Source: Methanobacteriota archaeon
Lineage (GTDB): Archaea; Thermoplasmatota; Poseidoniia; Poseidoniales; Thalassarchaeaceae
Direction: 5' to 3'
Assembly (NCBI GenBank): GCA_028355015.1
Contig: JAOMRN010000001.1
Location: forward strand, 129,229 to 193,228
Length of the DNA stretch: 64,000 nucleotides
This document shows positions 45,294 to 53,718 of this stretch, one piece after another. Positions within the stretch are counted from its first letter, which is position 1. The number at the start of each line of letters is the position of its first letter. The notes under the pieces are model-generated. The model worked only from the letters and a program-made list of their open reading frames with translations. It was not told the DNA's origin and did not search any database. Both the position numbers and the translations under genes were made by a program.

Positions 45294-45962
45294 TTACCAC
45301 TCCTTTGTTCGAAACTTCCCCAATGTTCCATAGGTAATACTTTCTGATCTTGGGAAAGGAATTATGACGTTTTTCTCCATATTAATTCTTCTTAGATTTT
45401 GTATAATCCATTGGCAACCGAATGAAGCTGCATTGATGAAACCGAATTGAATATTTCCTGAATCTACTGCACCTTCATATTGACAAGATCCTGGCTTTTG
45501 ATTTTTATCTGTTACTTTATCTATTTCTAAATTTGTAACTGTGTTGTCAATAGCCATGAAATTATCTCCTCTACATCTCAGATCTACCCATCTACAATCT
45601 GTTGAATGAACGACCATTCTAGCTTCTGATGAATCTACGCAAACAACTATCAAGTCATTATCAACAATTTCTTGCTTATTTCTAACATCTTTGGCATGAG
45701 GAATTATTTCTAATCTTCCATTTTCAAAACATTTCAAATTCCTATAAGTTGCATTAACTTTCTTCTCACCTATGTTCGAAGGAAAAAATCTCTGATGAAA
45801 TATATTACTTTCTTCTACTTCATCCGAGTCATACAGATTAATTTTAATATTTTCAAATTTTGTTGCTAAGTCTCCTTGAGACAAAGATGGTATCAATAAT
45901 GCAGCTACATTTGAACCAATCCCACCGACCCCTATTATTGCTATACTTAATGCATGATTCAT
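45294..45962 (-). CDS. ThiF/MoeB/E1-like adenylyltransferase (minimal, 222 aa)
   Basis: It has the Rossmann loop 'IAIIGVGGIGSNVAALL' (45903-45938), then 'LYDSDEVEESNIFHQRFF', 'GEKKV' and 'DLIVVCVDSSEARMVV'. This is the canonical order of E1-superfamily motifs. The start overlaps the E2 stop as ATGA, and a GGAGGA Shine-Dalgarno sequence lies upstream. Confidence 0.8.
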   Translation of the reverse strand: MNHALSIAIIGVGGIGSNVAALLIPSLSQGDLATKFENIKINLYDSDEVEESNIFHQRFFPSNIGEKKVNATYRNLKCFENGRLEIIPHAKDVRNKQEIVDNDLIVVCVDSSEARMVVHSTDCRWVDLRCRGDNFMAIDNTVTNLEIDKVTDKNQKPGSCQYEGAVDSGNIQFGFINAASFGCQWIIQNLRRINMEKNVIIPFPRSESITYGTLGKFRTKEW

Positions 45963-46723
45963 TGAAAATCCTCCAAATTAGAAAATACATTTTCATATAA
46001 TTTCATCTGTGTTGTTTTTTGTGATTCTTCCCAATAACTCCAATCATTACTTATGTTTTTTAATATCAAATCTCTCTTATTTGCAAATGAAAATTCACTA
46101 TCAGTTTTATCCAATTCGATTAACCATTCACTATATTGACTTATTTTATTAAAATCTATACCTTCCGAATTATTACCTTGAAACCAACTAATTATAATTC
46201 CTTTAATCATAGCTGTTCTCAAAGTCCTCATGTTCCTATCAAGTACTGAAGTCATATCTTCAGACAAACAATTCATTACAGAAACAATATGATCACCGGA
46301 CCAAAAAAGATGGTTTACAGAAGTTTTTACATCTAAGCAAATATGCTGCCAGCGCCCCTCTGAATGATCATACCAATGTGTTTCGAAATGAATTAATTTT
46401 TGAAATGTGAATAAGATTGATTTTAGATTTCTGTGACTCAACTCAACTTTTTGAATTCTTTTAGATAATAGATTTGCAATTCTTGATTCGAAAGATAATG
46501 TTAATCTATAATTAATTCCAGATTCTCTGCCATTTATGAAAATATGACATTTTCTACTTGAGTCGTATCCATCATCTATCGTGCAATCAATCGCTGCTCC
46601 AATTCTTTTCCTCTCAGATTCAATCCATTCTAGTGATTTATTGTGTGCATCTAAATTAGGGGTAATATATCTAAAAATTCCATTCTTTCTCTCTGGTGTA
46701 TATTCTTCTTCATTTCCTATCAC
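45959..46723 (-). CDS. UBC-like E2 ubiquitin-conjugating-enzyme homolog
   Basis: 254 aa. 'KLIHFETHWYDHSEGRWQHICLDVKTSVNHLFWSGDHIVSVMNCL' parallels the eukaryotic E2 core 'F.T.I.HPNI...G.ICLDIL...WSPA..I..VL.SI'. The candidate catalytic Cys129 codon is at 46337-46339. The start is GTG with GGAGGTG 5 nt upstream. Confidence 0.65.
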   Translation of the reverse strand: MIGNEEEYTPERKNGIFRYITPNLDAHNKSLEWIESERKRIGAAIDCTIDDGYDSSRKCHIFINGRESGINYRLTLSFESRIANLLSKRIQKVELSHRNLKSILFTFQKLIHFETHWYDHSEGRWQHICLDVKTSVNHLFWSGDHIVSVMNCLSEDMTSVLDRNMRTLRTAMIKGIIISWFQGNNSEGIDFNKISQYSEWLIELDKTDSEFSFANKRDLILKNISNDWSYWEESQKTTQMKLYENVFSNLEDFQ

Positions 46724-46948
46724 TCAAACACCTCCTAAATTTTCGATTTTTTCTTCTTCCTCTAACACAAGAGCACGATATGCTGTAACTCCTGTCAAAA
46801 TTTCTCTTATCTTAATCAATATCGATAAGTTTCTTTCAATATAATTCGTTAATGATAAAATAGTATCTGGATCTAAATTATGTCCGTTATTTTCTATTAT
46901 CTGTATGATTAATTGTATATCATCTTTCATAGACAAATCTTCAATCAC
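46724..46948 (-). CDS. Small acidic protein of unknown function inside the Ubl operon
   Basis: 74 aa. The start is GTG with a GGAGGTGA Shine-Dalgarno sequence 6 nt upstream. It overlaps the JAB stop by 1 nt and abuts the E2 start. Confidence 0.5.
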   Translation of the reverse strand: MIEDLSMKDDIQLIIQIIENNGHNLDPDTILSLTNYIERNLSILIKIREILTGVTAYRALVLEEEEKIENLGGV

Positions 46949-47451
46949 TATTCATCACCTCCTAGATTATGATTAAGAATCCCATAATAGACCATTTTAG
47001 CTAATTTTGATTTGACATTATATGCCAGATATTCATTATGTCCTAATACGATGCATGAATTCATCACAGATTTCCATGCATTAATTGTCATCCAATCTCT
47101 TTCGCTGAAATATGCTCTTCCTGAAGGGTGAGTATGGATACAACATTTAATTGGTAATTGCATTTTATTACCATTAGTCAATTCATCTTCATGATTTATG
47201 AATGATACCAAAGAAGATGTCCCACTGCTAATGTATAAATCATCTTTATCATCAATAATAACCATCACTTCTATTTCATCTAGTTCGTCTACAGACGTTT
47301 TCCATATTGCTGTCATAAAGACTTCAGTGGAATTGTTAGGGAAGAGATATTCTATATCATCCGCCATATCATTATGTACATCTCGTATATGCTGCTTCCA
47401 ATCTACTTCATTTTCTATTATATTTTTATTTTTTATTTGTTTTATTTTCAT
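46948..47451 (-). CDS. JAB/MPN (JAMM) metallopeptidase
   Basis: 167 aa. 'HTHPSGRAYFSERD' (47095-47136) is an exact HxHx7Sx2D JAMM zinc motif. An AAGGAG Shine-Dalgarno sequence lies upstream of the ATG. Confidence 0.85.
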   Translation of the reverse strand: MKIKQIKNKNIIENEVDWKQHIRDVHNDMADDIEYLFPNNSTEVFMTAIWKTSVDELDEIEVMVIIDDKDDLYISSGTSSLVSFINHEDELTNGNKMQLPIKCCIHTHPSGRAYFSERDWMTINAWKSVMNSCIVLGHNEYLAYNVKSKLAKMVYYGILNHNLGGDE

Positions 47452-47544: not shown

Positions 47545-47754
47545 TCAACCGAACACAATACGTGGCATCACTCTCACGGTTCCAACTGTAGACCAATCTG
47601 CTTCAGCCAATTCTCCTGGCTCAATCATCTGTCCTCCAGCGAAAACCCAACGCTCATTGTCAGACACGAGATCAACAGTCTCTCTCTGAGTCAATAAAGC
47701 GATGGTGTGCCCCGTATGGTCAGCAATTTCGACTTTTGTCGTTATGTTTTCCAT
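47545..47754 (-). CDS. Ubiquitin-like beta-grasp protein (ThiS/MoaD-like) ending in a free C-terminal Gly
   Basis: 69 aa. The tail '...GTVRVMPRIVFG*' resembles the '..GD.V.I.PPV.GG' tails of ThiS/MoaD. The terminal Gly codon at 47548-47550 is followed directly by TGA. A GGAGGT Shine-Dalgarno sequence lies 7 nt upstream of the ATG. Genomic linkage to E1/E2/JAB supports the call. Confidence 0.6.
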   Translation of the reverse strand: MENITTKVEIADHTGHTIALLTQRETVDLVSDNERWVFAGGQMIEPGELAEADWSTVGTVRVMPRIVFG

Positions 47755-47846
47755 TACGTTACCTCCTTTTCTTCATATTTTTTTCTAGGTCTTGCACCTT
47801 CTCAAATGTCATTAACACGCCAACATTTACACATGTCCTCGTTCAA

Positions 47847-47963
47847 CTATTCCCAGTCTTGAGCTACAAATGCGCCACCAATCATTCCAGTGATTGGTGC
47901 ACAAGTCATTGTGCCCACGACCAAACCAACAGTTCCGCCTACGATCGCTTTTAGCAATCCCAT
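47847..47963 (-). CDS. Glycine-zipper hydrophobic micro-protein A (38 aa), unannotated in the ORF track
   Basis: My translation is MGLLKAIVGGTVGLVVGTMTCAPITGMIGGAFVAQDWE*. The ATG is at 47963-47961, with an AAGGAG Shine-Dalgarno sequence at 47975-47980 (minus-strand sense). It is preceded by a conserved leader repeat. Confidence 0.6.
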   Translation of the reverse strand: MGLLKAIVGGTVGLVVGTMTCAPITGMIGGAFVAQDWE

Positions 47964-47974
47964 AACATATCACG

Positions 47975-48080
47975 CTCCTTGTTTGTGTCGTCTCTGTGCC
48001 CGAGACACGAGCCCTGTTTCCTTTCTAACAGGAAGTCATCGCATTTGCGAATAGAGTGTGTTCGGTCACTCGTCACATCC
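47975..48080 (-). repeat. Leader repeat copy 1 (upstream of micro-protein A)
   Basis: It shares with copy 2 the blocks CTCCTTGT, CTGTGCCCGA, CCCTGTTTCCTTTC.AACAGGAAGTCATCG..TTTGCGAA and ACTCGTCA.AT (plus-strand reading). It contains the hairpin CCTGTT(48013-48018)/AACAGG(48027-48032). Confidence 0.8.
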
Positions 48081-48191
48081 GCCGTCATATCCGTCTATGC
48101 CGTCCCAGTTTCCTGCAAGCAGAATTGGGATTGCTAGCGGTCCAACAACGACCGCTGCAGTGCCTGCAGCTATCCATCTCAATATTCCTAT
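48066..48191 (-). CDS. Glycine-zipper hydrophobic micro-protein B (41 aa), paralog of A, with ATA at the position of A's ATG
   Basis: Translation (I/M)GILRWIAAGTAAVVVGPLAIPILLAGNWDGIDGYDGGCDE* aligns residue for residue with peptide A over the first ~18 aa. AAGGAGGTG lies upstream. The aligned start codon is ATA (48191-48189), and an in-frame TTG lies at 48182-48180. Confidence 0.45.
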   Translation of the reverse strand: MGILRWIAAGTAAVVVGPLAIPILLAGNWDGIDGYDGGCDE

Positions 48192-48199
48192 ATTTTCAC

Positions 48200-48307
48200 C
48201 TCCTTGTGTTATTTCACTTCTGTGCCCGAAGTTCAGGCCCTGTTTCCTTTCCAACAGGAAGTCATCGTGTTTGCGAAAAAAATCACGTCCGATTACTCGT
48301 CATATTT
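48200..48307 (-). repeat. Leader repeat copy 2 (upstream of micro-protein B)
   Basis: The same conserved blocks are offset by 225-227 nt from copy 1. The hairpin arms are identical and the loop differs by one base. Confidence 0.8.
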
Positions 48308-48405
48308 TCTATGTCATTCTGATTATCATCCGGAAAGAAATCCACTAGATTCTCTCCAGCAATTGCTAAGTATGCTAAACGCCATAAAAACTCTTTAATT
48401 CTCAT
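48283..48405 (-). CDS. Possible third micro-ORF (40 aa) overlapping the stop of the membrane-protein gene
   Basis: Translation is MRIKEFLWRLAYLAIAGENLVDFFPDDNQNDIENMTSNRT*. Its 3' end occupies the same position in leader copy 2 that the 3' end of peptide B occupies in leader copy 1. Confidence 0.25.
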   Translation of the reverse strand: MRIKEFLWRLAYLAIAGENLVDFFPDDNQNDIENMTSNRT

Positions 48406-49534
48406 TATGTTCTACCTCATCCTCAACCCAGACAGGGCGATTCATCCATACGAATACGATCAAAATCGTTGCTAATCCAATTACAATAAATGTCGAAAAT
48501 ATTGTACCATCAACAATCCACGCTACTGCTAGAATTGGATTTGAAAATAATCTGCCTTGATTTCTCGAGTATTCTCTAGGGCATCCTTCTAAATTTAATT
48601 TTTCAAACCCCCATTCAACTTCTTTTTTGAGAATCGGGAATAACACGGCTGTACCTCCGGTTATCATTACGATTCCAAAGAACCATGTAGACTCAAATAA
48701 CAACATCAACGCTGAAATAAAGGTTATAATCAAACCAATATTCACAAGAAATCTATCTTCAATTATACGCTCTAATATCCCCGGTACAGCAGCTCCTATC
48801 AATGTAGAGATAGCGATAATTCCTCCAAGCGAAATTATCTCGGGTTGGTCTGAAATCGCTATAGTACCGGTAAGAATAATCACAAGTCGAGAAATAGATA
48901 CACTGTTGTTTAGAAATCCCTCAAGGAACGCCAAGATGGCTGGATACTGAAAAGTATCGACCCACCTAAGATGATTTTTTGCTCTAGTTTCTTTTCCGTC
49001 AGAAATTATATCTTCTTCTCTTGAGATAATTATTAATGCGAATAAAAGGAAACTCAAAGACAGGATCAATAGCAGCCCAGAACCTAACCATTCAACAAAG
49101 AAAGCCGCAGCCATAATCAAGATTATTCCACTTGCTTTCTCAAAGCAATTCCAGAGCTTAAAATTCATATCTGATTGGTGCTGGAGTTTGTAGAAAGCTG
49201 GCCAAAACGAGCCCACATAGAATCCTGAGAAGACGCCTCCACAGAGAATAAAGATCAATTCTTCAAACTGCCATGCACAAATGAAAAATAAGAAAGAAAT
49301 AACTCGTAATTTCACCGAATTACTGATTATATTCCAATTGAAATTAATATTAGAAGCATTCAACAACCCTGATGTTGCAGTAGCCGCAATCAACATTGTA
49401 ATATTTAGAGCAAGCAGTCCTATATCTCCACTTATTTCGTAAGCTAATTTGTACCCCCCTATCGTCCAACCTGCCTTCTCTGCCGCCTGTATAAGCCATC
49501 TAATCCCATATATCTTGATTTTTCTATTATTCAT
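48395..49534 (-). CDS. Polytopic membrane protein (transporter-like, about 10-12 TM helices)
   Basis: 379 aa, almost entirely hydrophobic helices with one central charged loop ('SREEDIISDGKETRAKNH'). This gives an MFS-like two-halves layout, judged from topology only. Confidence 0.45.
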   Translation of the reverse strand: MNNRKIKIYGIRWLIQAAEKAGWTIGGYKLAYEISGDIGLLALNITMLIAATATSGLLNASNINFNWNIISNSVKLRVISFLFFICAWQFEELIFILCGGVFSGFYVGSFWPAFYKLQHQSDMNFKLWNCFEKASGIILIMAAAFFVEWLGSGLLLILSLSFLLFALIIISREEDIISDGKETRAKNHLRWVDTFQYPAILAFLEGFLNNSVSISRLVIILTGTIAISDQPEIISLGGIIAISTLIGAAVPGILERIIEDRFLVNIGLIITFISALMLLFESTWFFGIVMITGGTAVLFPILKKEVEWGFEKLNLEGCPREYSRNQGRLFSNPILAVAWIVDGTIFSTFIVIGLATILIVFVWMNRPVWVEDEVEHNEN

Positions 49535-49535
49535 T

Positions 49536-49760
49536 TCTTCACCTTTTTATTGTATCTATTATGTCATACCTAAATTTATTTTTACACGAAAATAAAACTT
49601 TTTTTCTTATCTTATCTATTATGTAATACCTTAGTTTTTGAAATCTCCGAAGAGAGAATCCTTCTTAAGTCTTTTATTATGTCATACCTAAATTTATTTT
49701 TTAATAATTGATATATTTTTTTCTTTTCATATCTAATATGTATTACCTTTTAATTAAAGT
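49536..49760 (+). repeat. Four direct ~59-bp tandem repeat units in the divergent intergenic region
   Basis: Core (T)ATCTATTATGT(C/A)ATACCT(A/T)A.TTT starts at 49557, 49617, 49675 and 49734 (spacings 60, 58 and 59). Units 1 and 3 share the identical stretch ATTATGTCATACCTAAATTTATTTTT. Each core is preceded by a T-rich/CTT tract. Confidence 0.85.
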
Positions 49761-49767
49761 TATAAAT
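49760..49767 (+). promoter_or_regulatory. Candidate archaeal TATA box for the RNA polymerase gene
   Basis: TTATAAAT is centred about 30 nt upstream of the ATG at 49795, with no Shine-Dalgarno sequence. This geometry fits a (near-)leaderless archaeal transcript. Confidence 0.3.
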
Positions 49768-49794
49768 CAGATATCTTTCCCAGAAAATGTTAGT

Positions 49795-52700
49795 ATGGAT
49801 AAATCAGAAGAAATTACCACCAAAGTCGTAGTTGATAACGATGAAGTCAGTATCAGTAATCTCATTCAGCTCCTTTCACTAGAAATTGCTAAAGGCACAG
49901 AAGAAAATGATTCATATAAAGGGGGCATTACTCAACAAGATATTGAAGCGTTCAAGCAGGAATTTTCTTCTAGTCAGAGATTTGACCTACATCTCATAAG
50001 ATCTTGGATAAAGACCTTGAAACAACACCAAAATAAAGAATCAGAAGTCTCTAGACGCGAATATTTCAATAATAATTATGAATCATCACTAGGGAAATTG
50101 TATGAATTACCTGAAAAAGAACCTGAAAAATCTTGGTATGATTGGCATATTCATGAAGGGCATAAACTTGGTTATCAACTAGAAGATTTGATGCACCTGA
50201 AATCTGATCTAAGGATTCTACGCCCCAAAAATGATTATTTATTTAAAGTCGCTCTTCAATCCCGAGTAGAAAAAATGGCGGAAGGAAATAGCTCAATTAA
50301 GATATTAGATGGTGATGTACGAAGGCGTGAACAATCGCAATCTGATGACACATCAAGGAAACTTATAACTTCTTTTTCAAAATCATTCAATAATGTGTTT
50401 TCAAATAAGATGGATAAATATGTTGTTCATAGTAACGGAACATCGAATACTTATTGTAACCTATCTATAAAAACCATAGAAGAAATCATTCAAACTTCAG
50501 ATGAAGAGGGGTTATTTGAGAAGATATCAAAAGTATGTGTCCGATTACTAATTAAGGAATCTAGAGAAAAAGAGAGAAAGTCAAGATGGGACAGAAAAAT
50601 GAAAAAGAAGACTGAGGGATATACTAAATATACGGATATATGCCTTATTGAGAAAAACTTTATCATAGGATTGTCGGAATATATCGAAGATAAATTAAAC
50701 AAAGGGTTTCAAAACAAAAAAGAAAGCCTTCAAGAAGATGGAAGATGGATTGGATTGATAAATGCTGACCAAATAAAATTGAATAATACCTTTCTACGCG
50801 CCTCGAGGATTTTTTCACAATTAATAATAGCAGCATTAAATTCTGAGGGATGGATTCAAAGAAGGGCGGGTACATATAATGATTTTTTGTTACATTTACC
50901 AGTCGATGATGATGACAAAGAATCAAAAAATAAGGTGTCAGGACAACATAGAAATATGATGTCTTTTTCTGATAAATTGAAAAAAGAAGTTGCCCCTTGT
51001 GAACTTAGAGATTTTAAAACACGAGAAGAAAATGCAATATTTAGAGTATTAAGGAATGACACGCATAGATACATGTATTGCTGCCCTAGTGATCATAAAA
51101 TTAGTCCTGAGAAAACATCGGGTGGCTACATCAATACAGATTCTAAATCCGGTAGCTCTGTTGGGCTTACTGTTACTAAAGAAAAAAAGATTAGTAAGAT
51201 TACTAATAAATCCTCTCTCTTTTCTTGTAGTAAAAAAAGGTTCGAATATAATAATGAATCTCTCAGAGCATTAAATATTCTTCAAAAAACACAATGGGAA
51301 ATAAATTATGATTTATTGCAGTTTATATCTCTATCAATTGATACTGAGCTTCAGGGTACCTCTTATGCGGATATTCAATTAAAAGAAATATTTAGAAAAT
51401 CATTCTATTATGATGAAGAAATTGAAAACATAAGAGATAGAGATAGACGTAGGTTTGAGAATATAGAGAGGCGTAAACGTTTAACATATATTGGAAGAAT
51501 CTTGAGTCATAATGCCAATGTATTTTGGCATTCATGGGCCTTTGATTGGCGAGGAAGATTAATTGCCAGAGCTCCCATTTTAAGTCCACAAAAATCAGAC
51601 ATCGATCGTTCACTGATTCGATTTAAGGAATGGAAAGAATTAGGCATTAATGGATGGAAATGGTTCAGGATATTTTTATTCAATTTTTGTAAAGAAGATC
51701 CTTATTGGCTCGATGACCAACCGTCAAAATCATTTTCTAAAGATGAAAAATGCAAATGGATTGATAGGAATAAATTAAGAATCAAATCATTAATTAATAA
51801 TATTGATGACCCTAAGGTAATCGCATATCTCGATTTAAATAAATCTCCAATGCCTAAATCTGAAACTTTTCAGAGAATTTCTGTATTGCTTGAATATAAA
51901 AGAATATTAGATGAATACAATGATAAAAAAGATTGGTCCAAAGTTACCTCTGGGCATCCAATTCACTTCGATGCTTCTTCAAATGGCTATCAGCATCTCT
52001 CTCTTCTAATAAATAATAAGCAATTAGCAAAAAAAGTTAACGTTTTACCGAATGAAGTAAAGAATGATATCTATCAAGAAGTTGCAGATCAAGCGATAGA
52101 GAATTGGGATAATAATCAAAGTAAACTTAAAAAATATTTATTAGAAAACTTCAACGAATTAGATAATGAACAGCTTAATTCTATCAAAAATTCTGTTTTT
52201 AATAGAAATTTAGCTAAATTACCTACTATGACTTCTATTTATGGTGCTAAAGACTATGAAAGTTGTTTCATTGGAAGTAACGGAAAAGGAAAACCTAAAT
52301 TTATCAAATCAGGAAAAGTTTGGGTTTGTTGCTGGCATGAAGATTCTCCAATATATCAGAATTTAAGTAAATTAAATAACATAAAATTTTTAGGTCCCAA
52401 TGGATATTTTTCTGAAGATAAGTTTGTTTCTCCAGATAAGAAAGTTTTGAGGCAAAATATATTTGTTGAAAATTTGATTACAGATTATAAAAAATCAATT
52501 GAAGAAGTCACAGGCGGTGCATATGAGCAATTGACTCAGAAATTAAAAAAACTTGTTAATAAAGGCAAAAAACCAGATATCAGTTGGAAACTAGATGATG
52601 GTTCCCAGATTTGGCATTATTATCCAGCGAAGCAAGTAGTTACTAATTATGATTCAACTTCATCTCTAAAATTACTTATCGATACAGATGCTCTGAATTT

Positions 52701-53718
52701 TTCACCGAAGAATAGGGTTGATATTTTACATAAATTAAATGAGTTATCGCACATTTACCCTATGTGTAAGATCGATGATAAATTTATTGAAGAAGCAATA
52801 ATGAATTACAATAAATGGGTTGGAAATGACGAAGATTTTTTTGGAAAGAAAATTGTTGAACTTAATAATAACCTATACATTGGAGAACCTACTTCTTCTA
52901 AATCTAAGTTGCCATGGAAGATTTTATCTCTAAGGTCAGAGGATATAATTTCATTAAAGGAAGTAGATATAAAATTAGAGAAAATCTATAAAAAAATTGG
53001 TAATACAAAAAAACCAGTAAAAAATGAAAAAAAGAAAAAAGAGAAGAAGATTCTACTTAAAAAGTTAGTAAATGAGCAGAGAAAATTAAAAGAAGAAAAA
53101 AAAGAATTAGAGAAATTAATTGATGAAGAACAAACTGATAGCGAGAAAGCGGAGTTAGAATTCCAACGCAGTAATGAAATTCATAATTATTGGGCGGCTA
53201 TATATTATCTCTTCAAAATGTACCCCAAATCTTCATCACAAGATTTACTCAGAGCTATAGAACAACATATGATTCGTAAATTAGAAGATTCCGATGATGA
53301 ATTTATCAAAGCCTGTAAAATGGCGTTTAATATATCGACTAAATGTAATTTCATTGATTATGATGGTAGGGCAGATAAAAGAAGAATTTTATCTGGAATT
53401 TCCCCTAATTTCATACATTCTCTAGATGCTTATCATATGAGATCTTCAATTATTAAATTTTCTGAATCTGTTAAAAACCCATCAATTTGGGCTGTTCATG
53501 ATTCCTTTGGAACACATGCCTGTGATATAGGAAGTTATATTGAAGTAATCAAAGAAATGTTTTTGGGAATGCATAAAGAAAAAGATTTGAACAAATGGTG
53601 TGAAGAAATATCAAAAGAAAATGGCATTGAAGTCAAAGAAGATTCAATTGGGGATCCAGATTTTCGTAACGAGTTAATTAATGGAGAAATTCAGATATCT
53701 GATTTTTTCTTAAGTTGA
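49795..53718 (+). CDS. T7/T3/mitochondrial-type single-subunit DNA-dependent RNA polymerase (about 1307 aa)
   Basis: 'WAFDWRGRL' (DWRGR at 51544-51558) matches T7 'DWRGRVY'. 'IHFDASSNGYQHLS' is motif A, with the Asp codon at 51970-51972 (T7 'DGSCSGIQHFS'). 'LAKLPTMTSIYGA' is motif B, with Lys at 52216 and Tyr at 52240 (T7 'TKRSVMTLAYGS'). 'SPNFIHSLDAYHMR' (53401-53442) matches T7 'APNFVHSQDGSHLR'. 'WAVHDSFGTH' is motif C, with Asp at 53500-53502. The C-terminal 'SDFFLS*' resembles T7 'DFAFA' and mitochondrial 'YFFS'. I prefer the ATG at 49795 over the TTG at 49708. Confidence 0.9.
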   Translation: MDKSEEITTKVVVDNDEVSISNLIQLLSLEIAKGTEENDSYKGGITQQDIEAFKQEFSSSQRFDLHLIRSWIKTLKQHQNKESEVSRREYFNNNYESSLGKLYELPEKEPEKSWYDWHIHEGHKLGYQLEDLMHLKSDLRILRPKNDYLFKVALQSRVEKMAEGNSSIKILDGDVRRREQSQSDDTSRKLITSFSKSFNNVFSNKMDKYVVHSNGTSNTYCNLSIKTIEEIIQTSDEEGLFEKISKVCVRLLIKESREKERKSRWDRKMKKKTEGYTKYTDICLIEKNFIIGLSEYIEDKLNKGFQNKKESLQEDGRWIGLINADQIKLNNTFLRASRIFSQLIIAALNSEGWIQRRAGTYNDFLLHLPVDDDDKESKNKVSGQHRNMMSFSDKLKKEVAPCELRDFKTREENAIFRVLRNDTHRYMYCCPSDHKISPEKTSGGYINTDSKSGSSVGLTVTKEKKISKITNKSSLFSCSKKRFEYNNESLRALNILQKTQWEINYDLLQFISLSIDTELQGTSYADIQLKEIFRKSFYYDEEIENIRDRDRRRFENIERRKRLTYIGRILSHNANVFWHSWAFDWRGRLIARAPILSPQKSDIDRSLIRFKEWKELGINGWKWFRIFLFNFCKEDPYWLDDQPSKSFSKDEKCKWIDRNKLRIKSLINNIDDPKVIAYLDLNKSPMPKSETFQRISVLLEYKRILDEYNDKKDWSKVTSGHPIHFDASSNGYQHLSLLINNKQLAKKVNVLPNEVKNDIYQEVADQAIENWDNNQSKLKKYLLENFNELDNEQLNSIKNSVFNRNLAKLPTMTSIYGAKDYESCFIGSNGKGKPKFIKSGKVWVCCWHEDSPIYQNLSKLNNIKFLGPNGYFSEDKFVSPDKKVLRQNIFVENLITDYKKSIEEVTGGAYEQLTQKLKKLVNKGKKPDISWKLDDGSQIWHYYPAKQVVTNYDSTSSLKLLIDTDALNFSPKNRVDILHKLNELSHIYPMCKIDDKFIEEAIMNYNKWVGNDEDFFGKKIVELNNNLYIGEPTSSKSKLPWKILSLRSEDIISLKEVDIKLEKIYKKIGNTKKPVKNEKKKKEKKILLKKLVNEQRKLKEEKKELEKLIDEEQTDSEKAELEFQRSNEIHNYWAAIYYLFKMYPKSSSQDLLRAIEQHMIRKLEDSDDEFIKACKMAFNISTKCNFIDYDGRADKRRILSGISPNFIHSLDAYHMRSSIIKFSESVKNPSIWAVHDSFGTHACDIGSYIEVIKEMFLGMHKEKDLNKWCEEISKENGIEVKEDSIGDPDFRNELINGEIQISDFFLS

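What the first reader, a model, noticed from the sequence alone, without database searches (positions are those of the whole stretch)
47847..48405. Unannotated tandem glycine-zipper micro-proteins upstream of the Ubl operon
Two paralogous ORFs of about 40 aa fall below the ORF-track cutoff. They encode MG(L/I)L(K/R).I..GT...VVG... hydrophobic Gly/Ala-rich cores followed by acidic tails (QDWE, and DGIDGYDGGCDE). This composition recalls GxxxG glycine-zipper membrane peptides such as class II bacteriocin-like peptides and small pore-forming toxins.

They sit between a transporter-like membrane protein and the Ubl machinery, on the same strand. They could be effectors, substrates of conjugation, or exported toxins with the membrane protein acting as exporter or immunity factor.

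A possible third, dissimilar 40-aa ORF (48283-48405) overlaps the stop of the membrane-protein gene.
Basis: partly seen in the sequence, partly recalled or inferred. Interest (0 to 1): 0.68.

Follow-up and report, generated by a model that had tools for sequence, protein, structure and literature searches.

The report
Archaeal membrane micro-protein genes with pseudoknot leaders
Two real, strongly conserved genes for ~40-residue membrane peptides sit just upstream of a ubiquitin-like conjugation operon in an abundant marine archaeon, and each is preceded by a previously undescribed hairpin-plus-pseudoknot RNA leader.

Summary
Both micro-ORFs lie on the minus strand: A at 47847-47963 and B at 48066-48191.

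They are real genes. The exact A peptide is indexed in 344 blocks of public marine assemblies. pN/pS is 0.055 for A and 0.19 for B, and variation sits at third codon positions.

The host is a Marine Group IIb archaeon (Poseidoniales), not a bacterium.

B belongs to a narrow family: one TM helix plus an invariant acidic DGIDGYDGG tail. Across diverged lineages it accompanies homologs of the same Ubl/p254/ThiF module, and elsewhere it overlaps a CDC48 ATPase gene. ORF3 (48283-48405) is a frameshifted relic of a third B-type unit.

Each micro-ORF carries an ~86-nt leader: invariant UGACUU, a hairpin, a compact H-type pseudoknot, an A-rich spacer and a long Shine-Dalgarno. The structure is 95% paired (20-50% in slid controls), 13 of 16 pairs show compensatory changes, and no Rfam family matches. 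B starts at ATA behind a perfect SD.

The bacteriocin/exported-toxin reading is not supported. The most likely role is membrane-embedded partners of the soluble Ubl machinery, with translation tuned cistron by cistron by the leader. That role is inferred, not shown.

The parts
47847..47963 (-). Micro-ORF A: 38-aa glycine-zipper membrane peptide (ATG start, TAG stop)
   Evidence: ORF listed. The exact peptide is in 344 blocks of public assemblies. pN/pS is 0.055, with variable sites 4/0/13 by codon position. Nearly every codon shows synonymous variants. AlphaFold predicts helices 2-19 and 23-36, pLDDT 72.
47961..48047 (-). Leader A. Coordinates: UGACUU 48033-48038; hairpin H1 48013-48032; pseudoknot strand GCUC 48009-48012 pairing with GGGC 47998-48001; hairpin H2 47990-48006; SD AAGGAG 47975-47980 followed by C-GUGAU; ATG 47961-47963.
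   Evidence: Covariance-model hit of 94.6 bits, E = 4.8e-23. Covariation. No Rfam match.
48066..48191 (-). Micro-ORF B: 41 codons, ATA at the start position, one TM helix plus the acidic tail NWDGIDGYDGGCDE
   Evidence: Sequence. The family has 94 clusters. pN/pS is 0.19, or 0.075 for ATA-start genes alone. AlphaFold predicts a helix at 2-23 and a disordered tail. An exhaustive search finds only 30 representatives.
48187..48273 (-). Leader B. Coordinates: UGACUU 48259-48264; H1 48239-48258; pseudoknot strand GCCU 48235-48238 pairing with GGGC 48224-48227; H2 48216-48232; perfect SD GGAGGUGA 48196-48203; ATA 48189-48191.
   Evidence: Covariance-model hit of 82.7 bits, E = 9e-20. Direct repeat D1, 85% identical to leader A. 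H2 reads ACUUC/GAAGU here and GUCUC/GAGAC in leader A.
48283..48405 (-). ORF3: frameshifted, decayed third B-type unit, overlapping the end of the membrane-protein gene
   Evidence: The DNA alignment with B genes shows tail homology extending past the stop codon and a 1-nt deletion. No TM-like segment remains. No leader is detected.
47755..47846 (-). Conserved spacer between A and the Ubl gene, with an AAUGACAU box, candidate hairpins and the SD GGAGG
   Evidence: Alignment of 22 distinct spacers shows invariant blocks. The flanks of the first hairpin differ between lineages but stay complementary (CAUG/CGUG versus AGCG/CGCU). Not analysed further.
47545..47754 (-). 69-aa Ubl candidate ending in ...IVFG
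   Evidence: Weak but consistent phmmer similarity to ubiquitin (E = 0.01, residues 3-61). Follows the array in 36 of 38 cases.
45294..47451 (-). Soluble enzyme genes: JAB 46948-47451, p74 46724-46948, p254 45959-46723, ThiF E1 45294-45962
   Evidence: Pfam ThiF E = 3e-12 and Prok-JAB E = 9e-5, the latter below the curated cut-off. The E1 resembles UBA5, E = 4e-4. p254 and p74 have no family match. JAB, p74 and p254 have no TM-like segment; ThiF has only one N-terminal hydrophobic window (residues 4-27, KD 1.96).
48395..49534 (-). 379-aa polytopic membrane protein with at least 7 TM-like segments and no known family; fast-evolving and co-conserved
   Evidence: Homologs at 30-100% identity lie upstream of the array. 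Transitive homology links it to the L019 and L004 proteins.
49557..49699 (-). Two 25-nt SP6/T7-like promoter look-alikes (AAATAAATTTAGGTATGACATAATA, 49675-49699 and 49557-49581) plus a degenerate third copy, all pointing toward the membrane gene, the array and the Ubl operon
   Evidence: Analogous repeated boxes occur in L002, L007, L009 and L086.
49708..53718 (+). Divergently transcribed single-subunit T7/N4-like RNA polymerase (1336 aa)
   Evidence: Pfam RNA_pol E = 5e-41. PHROG RNA polymerase E = 5e-72. About 26% identity to phage RNAPs. Homologs sit next to the array in many lineages.

Best explanation
SHOWN:
- A and B are real protein-coding genes of a Marine Group IIb archaeon.
- They encode a two-helix glycine-zipper peptide (A) and a single-pass peptide with an invariant acidic DGIDGYDGG tail (B).
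- They are fixed components, in the order (C)-B-A-Ubl, of a conserved module.
- That module contains a polytopic membrane protein, a Ubl, JAB, p74, p254 and a ThiF-type E1. It usually also has a T7-like RNA polymerase with SP6-like promoters.
- Each micro-ORF in this sub-lineage has its own ~86-nt sense-strand RNA leader. In order, the leader is UGACUU, hairpin H1 with an 8-nt purine loop, and an H-type pseudoknot, followed by an A-rich spacer and an extended SD.
- In the pseudoknot, the linker NCCY pairs with the first four loop bases GGGN of hairpin H2. The SD reads AAGGAG-N-GUGAU.

INFERRED:
- The module is transcribed as a long polycistronic RNA. The leaders act as intercistronic cis-elements that give each tiny cistron a defined, protected 5' structure and an exposed ribosome-loading site.
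- Output is tuned per cistron. The recurring swap to an ATA start with a perfect GGAGGUG SD is one such setting.
- A shared trans-factor or ligand probably reads the invariant loops.
- The peptides, together with the 379-aa protein, form the membrane-embedded arm of an otherwise soluble Ubl-conjugation machine. They act as anchors or adaptors rather than free toxins.
For: Coding status:
- The exact A peptide is in 344 blocks.
- pN/pS is 0.055, 0.19 and 0.075, with variation biased to third positions.
- The B family has 94 clusters.

Leader structure:
- No Rfam hit.
- MAFFT alignment of 24 leaders: 94.5% of cells paired against 23-47% when slid, 11 of 16 pairs with double changes, 0 of 500 shuffles reaching the score.
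- RNAalifold predicts the same two hairpins independently.
- Alignment of 46 distinct leaders: 95.0% paired against 20-50% slid, 13 of 16 pairs compensatory.
- Pseudoknot pair types are GC21/AU13/UA5 and CG40/UA4. These columns were not constrained by the search pattern or the model.
- About 50 G.U cells exist only on the sense strand.

Specificity of the leader:
- Only 2 hits in the 64-kb window, next best 14 bits.
- Every true hit from the metagenome scan precedes an MG... micro-ORF.

ATA start:
- 24 of 96 units have ATA, always with GGAGGUGA.
- The same arrangement arose in an A-type gene in L071/L038.
- A 1-nt indel in the leader shifts the frame of the upstream extension, so that extension is not coding.

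Module membership:
- 36 of 38 A units are followed by a Ubl homolog.
- B-type peptides occur with Ubl, p254, ThiF and RNAP homologs at 24-60% identity.
- B's stop overlaps the start of the next gene, with the SD GGAGGUGA encoded in B's tail codons (L027, L082). In L027 that gene is a CDC48 ATPase.
- The enzymes show no TM-like segment apart from one N-terminal hydrophobic window in ThiF (residues 4-27). The micro-proteins and the 379-aa protein are the clearly membrane-embedded parts.
Against: - There are no expression, proteomic or interaction data of any kind.
- The anchor/adaptor role rests on synteny and translational coupling only.
- By the positive-inside rule, B's acidic tail probably faces outward. 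It may therefore not contact cytosolic enzymes.
- No alternative fold that sequesters the SD was found, so how the leader regulates is unknown.
- The invariant UGACUU is unexplained.
- Lineages such as L086 have the same peptide trio with no leader, so the leader is not essential to the module.
- Two related contigs (L046, L078) have the array without a Ubl gene downstream.
- The leader set was partly selected by a pattern that fixes the H2 loop and closing pairs, and by a stem filter. This inflates the percentage paired for H1 and H2, but not for the pseudoknot.
- AlphaFold confidence is only moderate (pLDDT about 71-72).
Confidence: 0.45

Rival explanations
1. The peptides are membrane-permeabilising effectors of an antiviral, abortive-infection type Ubl module. 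The leaders and the weak ATA start keep them nearly silent until the module, driven by its own RNA polymerase, is triggered.
For: - Prokaryotic Ubl/E1/E2/JAB operons are known or suspected defence systems (Bil, CBASS Cap2/Cap3, Bub; PMC11601596 read, papers listed).
- The ThiF protein hits PADLOC CBASS E1-E2 models.
- A has a glycine-zipper motif typical of pore formers.
- The locus is low in GC, lies next to a tRNA-Gly gene and borders a variable cassette slot.
- The RNAP and membrane protein evolve fast, at 30-38% identity where the Ubl is 94-96% identical.
Against: - A is frozen in sequence, including polar residues within the membrane segment, and is at least as conserved as the Ubl.
- B is repeatedly translationally coupled to soluble partners, including CDC48. 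That fits stoichiometric complexes better than a toxin.
- No PADLOC model other than the E1 matches.
- No sensor or cyclase is present.
Confidence: 0.22
2. The leader is a new riboswitch-type sensor. It would be a hairpin plus H-type pseudoknot aptamer that binds a small ligand or ion and sets translation of small membrane proteins handling that ligand.
For: - Invariant loop and linker nucleotides are combined with covarying stems.
- The compact pseudoknot is followed by an A-rich tail and an SD, an architecture resembling small pseudoknot riboswitches.
- The element is duplicated per cistron.
- B's invariant (DGx)3 acidic tail suggests cation binding.
Against: - No alternative SD-sequestering fold or terminator was found. 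The SD is unpaired in all predicted folds.
- The associated genes are not transporters or enzymes of any known ligand.
- The leader is absent from related lineages that have the same genes.
- No match to any of 4227 Rfam families.
Confidence: 0.12
3. The peptides are substrates of the Ubl system, i.e. conjugation targets whose modification controls their turnover or assembly.
For: Tight synteny with the Ubl and E1 genes. A has one invariant lysine, K5.
Against: Most B-type peptides have no lysine at all; position 5 is R or S. Dedicated substrates encoded in the operon are not a feature of the known Bil, Bub or SAMP systems covered in the papers read.
Confidence: 0.08
4. One reading: exported class-II-bacteriocin-like toxins, with the neighbouring membrane protein acting as exporter or immunity factor.
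For: The peptides are small, hydrophobic and Gly/Ala-rich, and they lie next to a polytopic membrane protein.
Against: - The host is an archaeon.
- There is no cleavable double-glycine leader; the conserved N-terminus MGLL(K/R) runs straight into the helix.
- No C39-peptidase ABC exporter is present.
- Conservation is extreme rather than diversifying.
- B-type peptides also occur coupled to CDC48 or E1 operons.
Confidence: 0.04
5. The conserved 'leader' acts at the DNA level, as a promoter or hairpin promoter for the adjacent T7/N4-like RNA polymerase, rather than as an RNA structure.
For: An RNAP gene and SP6-like promoter repeats are nearby. The window copies contain ATGACAT, which resembles the invariant UGACUU box. 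N4-type virion RNAPs are known to use hairpin promoters (background knowledge).
Against: - In L002 the ATGAC segment is the variable part of the promoter repeats.
- In the window, the extended SP6-like word occurs only in the RNAP-membrane spacer.
- UGACUU is invariant across lineages whose RNAPs are only 32-37% identical, and in L003-type loci with no adjacent RNAP.
- About 50 G.U pairs work only on the sense strand.
Confidence: 0.05

Closest known systems
Prokaryotic Ubl-E1-E2-JAB operons (Bil/BilABCD, Bub, CBASS Cap2/Cap3; Iyer et al. 2006, PMC1779556; PMC11601596)
   Same: A small Ubl ending in Gly, a ThiF-type E1 and a JAB peptidase lie in one operon. One related locus has a JAB-E1 fusion, as in BubCD. 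The locus is next to a tRNA gene and in a variable region.
   Different: - The host is an archaeon.
- No recognisable E2: p254 matches no Pfam, NCBIfam, PADLOC or PDB family.
- There are extra parts: p74, a polytopic membrane protein, a T7-like RNAP and 2-3 membrane micro-proteins.
- The papers read mention no small TM peptides or structured leaders as components.
Glycine-zipper small membrane proteins (Pfam Gly-zipper_Omp PF13488, DUF1269 PF06897)
   Same: Peptide A has GxxxGxxxG and a second GxxxG, and is predicted to form two short helices.
   Different: The matches are far below threshold (E = 0.71 and 0.14). A is a stand-alone 38-aa protein with invariant T/C/P residues and a QDWE tail.
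Small H-type pseudoknot cis-regulators (preQ1-I, SAM-II/SAM-V and guanidine-III riboswitches; the T4 gene 32 leader pseudoknot)
   Same: A compact H-type pseudoknot (4 bp + 5 bp, L1 3 nt, L3 ACA) sits just upstream of an A-rich single-stranded stretch and the SD.
   Different: There is no sequence or structure match to any Rfam model. It has an extra 5' hairpin with a conserved purine loop and a UGACUU box. No ligand or binding protein is known and no SD-sequestering alternative was found. The host is archaeal.
Downstream-peptide motif (glutamine-II riboswitch) of marine cyanobacteria
   Same: A structured leader from marine metagenomes that specifically precedes very short ORFs.
   Different: The fold and sequence differ, with no Rfam hit. 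The peptides differ, the host domain differs, and here one copy precedes each cistron of a tandem array.
Type I toxin-antitoxin small hydrophobic toxins (Hok, TisB, Fst) with structured 5' UTRs
   Same: Single-helix peptides of 30-40 aa are preceded by structured leaders and translated weakly.
   Different: Protein conservation is strong. The genes form a fixed tandem array inside an enzyme operon. No antisense RNA is evident (not tested rigorously). The SD is exposed rather than sequestered.
Intercistronic processing and stabiliser hairpins of T7 polycistronic mRNAs
   Same: A T7-like RNAP with its own promoters lies upstream, with structured elements between short cistrons.
   Different: The elements here are a hairpin plus a pseudoknot rather than RNase III sites. 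Most archaea lack RNase III (background knowledge). Processing has not been shown.

Membership tests
Any Rfam 15 RNA family | Covariance-model score at the gathering threshold, or at least E < 10 | tested here: not met
   Only tRNAs were found in the window. A sensitive scan of 47750-48450 gave two chance-level hits (mir-60, snoR111; E = 2.7 and 4.7). The same result was obtained on four homologous loci.
H-type pseudoknot (structural class) | Two helices in the order a-b-a'-b', supported by covariation, with sterically feasible loops | tested here: met
   The linker NCCY pairs with loop bases GGGN (96.7-96.9% paired; pair types GC/AU/UA and CG/UA). H2 has 5 bp, L1 is 3 nt and L3 is ACA.
Riboswitch | Conserved aptamer structure | tested here: met
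   Invariant loops with covarying stems across 46 distinct leaders.
Riboswitch | Expression platform: an alternative fold that hides the SD or forms a terminator | tested here: not met
   The SD is unpaired in MFE and consensus folds. A covariation scan found no pairing partner for the SD region.
Riboswitch | Direct ligand binding | not testable with these tools
   Requires in-line probing, ITC or similar.
Pfam glycine-zipper families (PF13488, PF06897) | HMM score above the curated cut-off | tested here: not met
   10.3 bits against a cut-off of 25 (E = 0.71), and 12.9 bits against 26.9 (E = 0.14). The GxxxGxxxG motif itself is present.
Class II bacteriocins | N-terminal double-glycine (or Sec) leader cleaved on export | tested here: not met
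   The conserved N-terminus MGLL(K/R) leads directly into the TM helix. There is no GG cleavage motif ahead of a mature domain.
Class II bacteriocins | Dedicated ABC exporter with a C39 peptidase, plus an immunity gene | tested here: not met
   The nearby ABC protein has only ABC_membrane and ABC_tran domains, and L007/L009-type loci show other genes in its place. Immunity function is not testable here.
Bil-type (BilABCD) ubiquitin-like defence operon | E1 adenylating enzyme | tested here: met
   Pfam ThiF E = 3e-12. UBA5-like in the PDB, E = 4e-4.
Bil-type (BilABCD) ubiquitin-like defence operon | JAB/JAMM peptidase | tested here: inconclusive
   Prok-JAB E = 9e-5, but 22.8 bits is below the cut-off of 25. 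The motif HTHPSGRAYFSERD is present.
Bil-type (BilABCD) ubiquitin-like defence operon | Ubl with a beta-grasp fold and C-terminal Gly | tested here: inconclusive
   phmmer to ubiquitin gives E = 0.01 over residues 3-61. The protein ends in ...VFG. No structure was predicted.
Bil-type (BilABCD) ubiquitin-like defence operon | E2 (UBC-fold) enzyme | tested here: not met
   p254 and p74 have no Pfam, NCBIfam, PADLOC, PHROG or PDB match. A fold-level test was not done.
Bil-type (BilABCD) ubiquitin-like defence operon | Antiviral function | not testable with these tools
   The host is uncultured.
Type I toxin-antitoxin | Overlapping or adjacent antisense RNA antitoxin, and toxicity of the peptide | not tested
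   No archaeal promoter or transcript data are available. G.U pairs show that the conserved structure is on the sense strand.

The most novel reading that the evidence does not exclude
The hairpin-plus-pseudoknot leader is a new class of ligand- or ion-sensing regulatory RNA, i.e. a riboswitch, in Archaea. It would gate translation of membrane micro-proteins that form the membrane arm of a self-transcribing ubiquitin-like conjugation system with its own T7-like RNAP. That system would be a previously unrecognised, possibly antiviral, membrane-directed Ubl pathway in the most abundant planktonic archaea of the surface ocean.
Probability: 0.12. Interest if true: 0.88.

Novelty: new variant of a known kind. 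Interest (0 to 1): 0.7.

Why it matters
[quoted passage not shown] Almost nothing is known about their regulatory RNAs or small proteins. This locus supplies a covariation-supported structured RNA motif that is absent from Rfam. Structured cis-regulatory RNAs are rare in Archaea.

**New micro-protein families.** It also supplies two to three families of conserved micro-proteins, which are called only as 'hypothetical protein' or missed altogether.

**Start-codon tuning.** It shows a natural, recurrent pairing of an ATA start codon with a perfected Shine-Dalgarno, which indicates deliberate tuning of translation.

**Scope of prokaryotic Ubl systems.** The micro-proteins are fixed parts of an archaeal Ubl/E1/JAB module that appears to have its own T7-like polymerase and promoters. 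They are also linked elsewhere to a CDC48 unfoldase. If they anchor or target that machinery at the membrane, this would extend prokaryotic ubiquitin-like systems to membrane-associated functions. It would also give defined parts for heterologous tests.

Tried and rejected
1. **Rfam.** Gathering and permissive scans of the window, the region and four homologous loci found nothing.
2. **Strict leader pattern in viral contigs.** No hits.
3. **Strict leader pattern in genome contigs.** One hit in a Thermotogae MAG that lacks the H1 5' arm. Treated as chance.
4. **Anti-SD pairing by UUCCU/UGACUU.** Works only for CCUGUU-type stems and is not conserved (reading). The covariation scan found no partner for the SD.
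5. **UGACUU as the core of the T7-like promoter.** Rejected. ATGAC is the variable part of the L002 promoter repeats, and in the window the extended promoter word occurs only upstream of the membrane gene.
6. **RNA-level constraint on the in-ORF word GGGCACA-AUGACUU in gene A.** Rejected. Synonymous sites there vary freely in the wider set, and the word occurs in 13 of 24 CDS.
7. **Annotation of other B-type contexts.** Pfam and PDB searches of the genes next to the CDC48-linked and P0034-type B peptides gave nothing.
8. **The 583-607-aa protein that replaces the RNAP in L004/L019.** Unrelated to the RNAP.
9. **P0099, a 435-aa member of the A cluster.** An FtsX-like permease that was mis-clustered.
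10. **PADLOC, PHROGs and NCBIfam on the module proteins.** Only the E1 and the RNAP are recognised.
11. **Literature.** No description was found of this module, these peptides or this motif.
Full report
**1. What is in the sequence**

All features lie on the minus strand.

- ORF A (47847-47963) encodes MGLLKAIVGGTVGLVVGTMTCAPITGMIGGAFVAQDWE.
- ORF B (48066-48191) encodes (I/M)GILRWIAAGTAAVVVGPLAIPILLAGNWDGIDGYDGGCDE. The codon at its 'M' position is ATA, preceded by GGAGGUGA. The mechanical ORF list shows only a 62-aa TTG-initiated ORF that runs through the upstream conserved region.
- ORF3 (48283-48405) overlaps the end of a 379-aa membrane-protein gene.

Downstream on the same strand are:

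| Gene | Coordinates | Evidence |
|---|---|---|
| 69-aa Ubl candidate | 47545-47754 | phmmer to ubiquitin, E = 0.01 |
| JAB-like peptidase | 46948-47451 | Prok-JAB E = 9e-5, below the curated cut-off |
| p74 | 46724-46948 | no family match |
| p254 | 45959-46723 | no family match |
| ThiF-type E1 | 45294-45962 | Pfam E = 3e-12; UBA5-like E = 4e-4 |

Upstream, and divergently transcribed, is a 1336-aa T7/N4-like single-subunit RNA polymerase.

**2. Host**

Neighbouring genes in homologous contigs include PCNA, TFIIS, Nop and fibrillarin. The window's exact PCNA, and close relatives of its Ubl, are deposited under 'Candidatus Thalassarchaeaceae archaeon', 'Candidatus Poseidoniales archaeon' and 'Euryarchaeota archaeon'. 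A B-type peptide is deposited under 'Candidatus Thermoplasmatota archaeon'. The window is therefore from a Marine Group IIb archaeon. GC is about 37%, dropping to 30-35% over the module, which lies next to a tRNA-Gly gene. A 'Marinimicrobia' label on one MAG is probably a binning error.

**3. The micro-ORFs are real genes**

The exact 38-aa A peptide is indexed in 344 blocks of the assembly collection. It occurs on contigs whose flanking genes differ.

From 96 leader-plus-ORF units collected in 59 loci, Nei-Gojobori counts give the following:

| Set | pN/pS | Variable sites by codon position (1/2/3) |
|---|---|---|
| A | 0.055 | 4/0/13 |
| B | 0.19 | 9/6/30 |
| B, ATA-start only | 0.075 | 5/1/22 |

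Nearly every codon of A shows synonymous variants with the amino acid kept.

A profile search of 5.8 billion proteins returned 94 clusters. An exhaustive HMM search of 1.84 billion representatives returned only 30 at E ≤ 0.001, almost all of them micro-proteins. These are narrow, previously uncharacterised families.

- **A.** Invariant residues include K5, G10, G13, G17, T18-M-T-C21, P23, G26, G29-G30 and Q35-D36. AlphaFold predicts helices at 2-19 and 23-36, pLDDT 72.
- **B.** The family shares MGLLR, one helix (residues 2-23, pLDDT 84 there) and a disordered, nearly invariant tail, (N/S)D(W/M)DGIDGYDGG(C/S/G)D(D/E).
- **C.** A third, shorter type (MGFLKWLLLGSGAAYFEHTVSGDDDDDC) occurs in some loci.
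- **ORF3.** This is a decayed B-type unit. Its last 45 nt align with the tail of B genes, continuing past the stop codon, with a 1-nt deletion. It has no hydrophobic segment left.

**4.

A 59-nt direct repeat (85% identity) precedes both ORFs. Homologous loci keep the same architecture with entirely different stem sequences.

I searched metagenomes with a pattern that fixes only UGACUU, the H2 loop with its closing bases, and GGAG. This returned 51 loci. About ten are chance hits without hairpins. Every other hit has both hairpins and is followed by an 'MG...' micro-ORF.

Covariation statistics:

| Alignment | Cells paired | Slid controls | Pairs with double changes | Shuffles reaching the score |
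|---|---|---|---|---|
| A2, 24 leaders, two hairpins | 93.8% | 28-44% | 9 of 12 | 0 of 500 |
| A2, with pseudoknot | 94.5% | 23-47% | 11 of 16 | 0 of 500 |
| A5, 46 distinct leaders, with pseudoknot | 95.0% | 20-50% | 13 of 16 | 0 of 500 |

RNAalifold predicts the same two hairpins independently.

A covariance model built from these leaders finds only the two copies in the 64-kb window (94.6 and 82.7 bits; next best 14 bits). In the fetched loci it finds 86 copies. Some are divergent copies that the pattern never selected, and all of those precede A- or B-type ORFs.

An all-against-all column scan then exposed a third helix. The four bases directly 3' of H1 (NCCY) pair with the first four bases of the H2 loop (GGGN). 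Pair types are GC21/AU13/UA5, CG40/UA4, CG36/UG9 and UG25/CG17/GC2, and 96.7-96.9% of cells are paired. Neither the pattern nor the model constrained the linker columns, so this support is unbiased.

The result is a compact H-type pseudoknot: 4 bp plus 5 bp, L1 of 3 nt, and L3 reading ACA.

About 50 G.U cells exist only on the sense strand, so the structure belongs to the mRNA.

No Rfam family matches.

Caveat: the H2 loop and its two closing pairs were fixed by my pattern, and I applied a stem filter. The percentage paired for H1 and H2 is therefore somewhat inflated. The divergent model-only hits and the pseudoknot are the cleaner evidence.

**5. Translation signals**

ATG-start units carry AAGGAG-N-GUGAU(A). 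From general knowledge, this reads as a bulged complement of the 16S rRNA 3' end; I did not test it here.

The 24 ATA-start units all carry an uninterrupted GGAGGUGA, with 7 nt between GGAGG and ATA. The same ATA plus GGAGGUG arrangement arose independently in an A-type gene in L071/L038.

The ORF extension upstream of ATA is not conserved as protein, because a 1-nt length difference in the leader shifts its frame between the window and L002. Initiation at ATA is therefore inferred. A TTG at codon 3 or 4 cannot be excluded, but its spacing from the SD is poor.

**6. Genomic association**

- 36 of 38 A units with enough downstream sequence are followed within 86-187 nt by a Ubl homolog. The two exceptions are related contigs, L046 and L078.
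- p254 and ThiF follow the Ubl gene. A homolog of the 379-aa membrane protein is present in all locus types, directly or by transitive homology.
- The RNAP is adjacent in most loci and is replaced by an unrelated ~600-aa protein in others.
- Other B-type family members were looked up on their own. They again sit with homologs of the Ubl (40-60% identity), p254 (24-34%), ThiF (44-47%; in L082 with a JAB-like region) and the RNAP.
- In L086 the trio of a short TM peptide, B and an A-like glycine-zipper peptide precedes the Ubl gene. The three are translationally coupled and have no leaders. The order C-B-A-Ubl is therefore old, and the leader is an innovation of one sub-lineage.
- In L027-L030 a B-type gene overlaps the start of a CDC48-family AAA ATPase.
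- At such junctions in L027 and L082, the codons for B's tail spell GGAGGUGA(U), which serves as the SD of the next gene.
- The enzymes lack clear TM segments; only ThiF has an N-terminal hydrophobic window (residues 4-27). The micro-proteins and the 379-aa protein are the clearly membrane-embedded parts.

**7. Mechanism**

Shown:
- The peptides are real, conserved membrane micro-proteins.
- They have a fixed place in a Ubl/E1/JAB module.
- A sense-strand hairpin-plus-pseudoknot leader is specific to them.
- An ATA start paired with a perfect SD recurs.

Inferred, about 0.45 overall:
- The leaders are intercistronic cis-elements on a long transcript. They give each tiny cistron a defined 5' structure and an open ribosome-loading site, and they set relative output.
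- The peptides, with the polytopic protein, form the membrane arm of the Ubl machine. They act as anchors or adaptors, consistent with translational coupling of B to soluble partners and to CDC48.

Rivals:

| Rival | Confidence |
|---|---|
| Membrane-permeabilising effectors of a defence module | 0.22 |
| Leader is a riboswitch | 0.12 |
| Ubl substrates | 0.08 |
| Leader is a DNA-level RNAP promoter | 0.05 |
| Bacteriocin-like export | 0.04 |

Still unexplained: the invariant unpaired UGACUU, the invariant H1 purine loop, and the function of B's (DGx)3 tail. By the positive-inside rule that tail probably faces outward. Its composition suggests cation binding. Both points are inference only.

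**8. Comparison with known systems, and novelty**

The enzymes resemble Bil, Bub and Cap2/Cap3-type Ubl operons. No E2 can be recognised, and the host is archaeal. The published descriptions I read do not include small TM peptides, structured leaders or a dedicated RNAP.

The leader resembles small pseudoknot regulators in architecture only. A resembles glycine-zipper peptides in motif only.

I rate this a new variant of known kinds. Structured 5' leaders, membrane micro-proteins and prokaryotic Ubl operons are each known, but here they are combined in an undescribed way. Interest: 0.70.

Noticed in passing
window 49557-49699 (-) and 49708-53718 (+): An archaeal chromosome carries a T7/N4-like single-subunit RNA polymerase. 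Beside it are tandem SP6-like promoter look-alikes (AAATAAATTTAGGTATGACATAATA x2 plus a degenerate copy) that point at the membrane gene, the micro-ORFs and the Ubl operon. Lineage-specific versions occur in L002 (4 copies), L007/L009 (TATAGGTGATACTATC) and L086 (AATTACTTACCAC(T/A)AT, once before the micro-ORF trio and once before the Ubl gene). This suggests a self-transcribing module.
   Followed up: partly
window 48189-48203 (-); L071:3490-3576; L038:463-549: An ATA codon sits at the start position, always paired with an uninterrupted GGAGGUG(A) SD. The arrangement arose independently in B-type and A-type genes, and those ORFs remain under purifying selection. This looks like near-cognate initiation used as a tuning device in an archaeon.
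   Followed up: partly
window 47755-47846 (-): The spacer between A and the Ubl gene is as conserved as coding sequence. It has an AAUGACAU box, a conserved 12-nt loop (UGUARAUGUYGG) flanked by arms that differ between lineages but stay complementary, and a GGUGCRA hairpin. It may be a second, different structured leader for the Ubl gene.
   Followed up: partly
L004:5330-5560 (also L003, L005, L008, L010); L019:3400-3530: In loci with a third upstream unit, the C-type peptide or the first B' peptide is preceded by a different conserved region of about 200 nt. It has hairpins with varying stem sequences (e.g. CACCUCCGCAUUCG...GUGGGGGG versus CAACCUGGCAUUGG...GCCGGGUG). It is not in Rfam.
   Followed up: no
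L027:5001-7288 (also L028-L030): A B-type micro-ORF overlaps the start of a CDC48-family AAA ATPase gene, inside an operon of otherwise unrecognisable proteins (738, 250, 149, 164, 157 and 536 aa). No leader is present.
   Followed up: partly
L082:500-525, L084:450-473, L027:5100-5125: The codons for the conserved B tail (…DGGxDE) spell GGAGGUGA(U/C). This serves as the SD of the next gene, whose start overlaps B's stop (TGATG or TAGTG). The tail sequence may therefore be constrained at both the protein and the RNA level.
   Followed up: no
window 46724-46948 (-): The 74-aa protein ends in ...ENLGGV. A diglycine one residue from the C-terminus is reminiscent of a Ubl precursor processed by a JAB peptidase, although the protein looks helical from its sequence.
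   Followed up: no
L082:1730-2959: In a related module the ThiF E1 is 409 aa long and has a region similar to the window's JAB protein (27% identity, E = 8e-5). This is a JAB-E1 fusion, as in bacterial BubCD.
   Followed up: no
window 48395-53718 versus L004:2256-5184 and L019:401-3275: The slot upstream of the array is a cassette site. It holds either the RNAP with the membrane protein next to the array, or the membrane-protein homolog followed by an unrelated 583-607-aa protein on the opposite strand. The RNAP and the membrane protein are only 30-38% identical between lineages whose Ubl is 94-96% identical.
   Followed up: partly
L046:3400-5400 and L078: Two related contigs carry the B and A units with their leaders, but a 298-aa unrelated ORF follows instead of the Ubl gene. 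This could be a rearranged locus or an assembly chimera.
   Followed up: partly
window 48274-48282 (-): A run of seven T lies immediately upstream of leader B, just after ORF3 and the membrane gene. It could be an archaeal oligo-T terminator, which a T7-like RNAP would probably ignore.
   Followed up: no
clusters 2 and 3: The exact Ubl and ThiF proteins of the window are deposited in one NCBI MAG labelled 'Candidatus Marinimicrobia/Neomarinimicrobiota bacterium' (contig of 451 kb). All other evidence is archaeal, so this is probably a mis-binned or mislabelled MAG.
   Followed up: no
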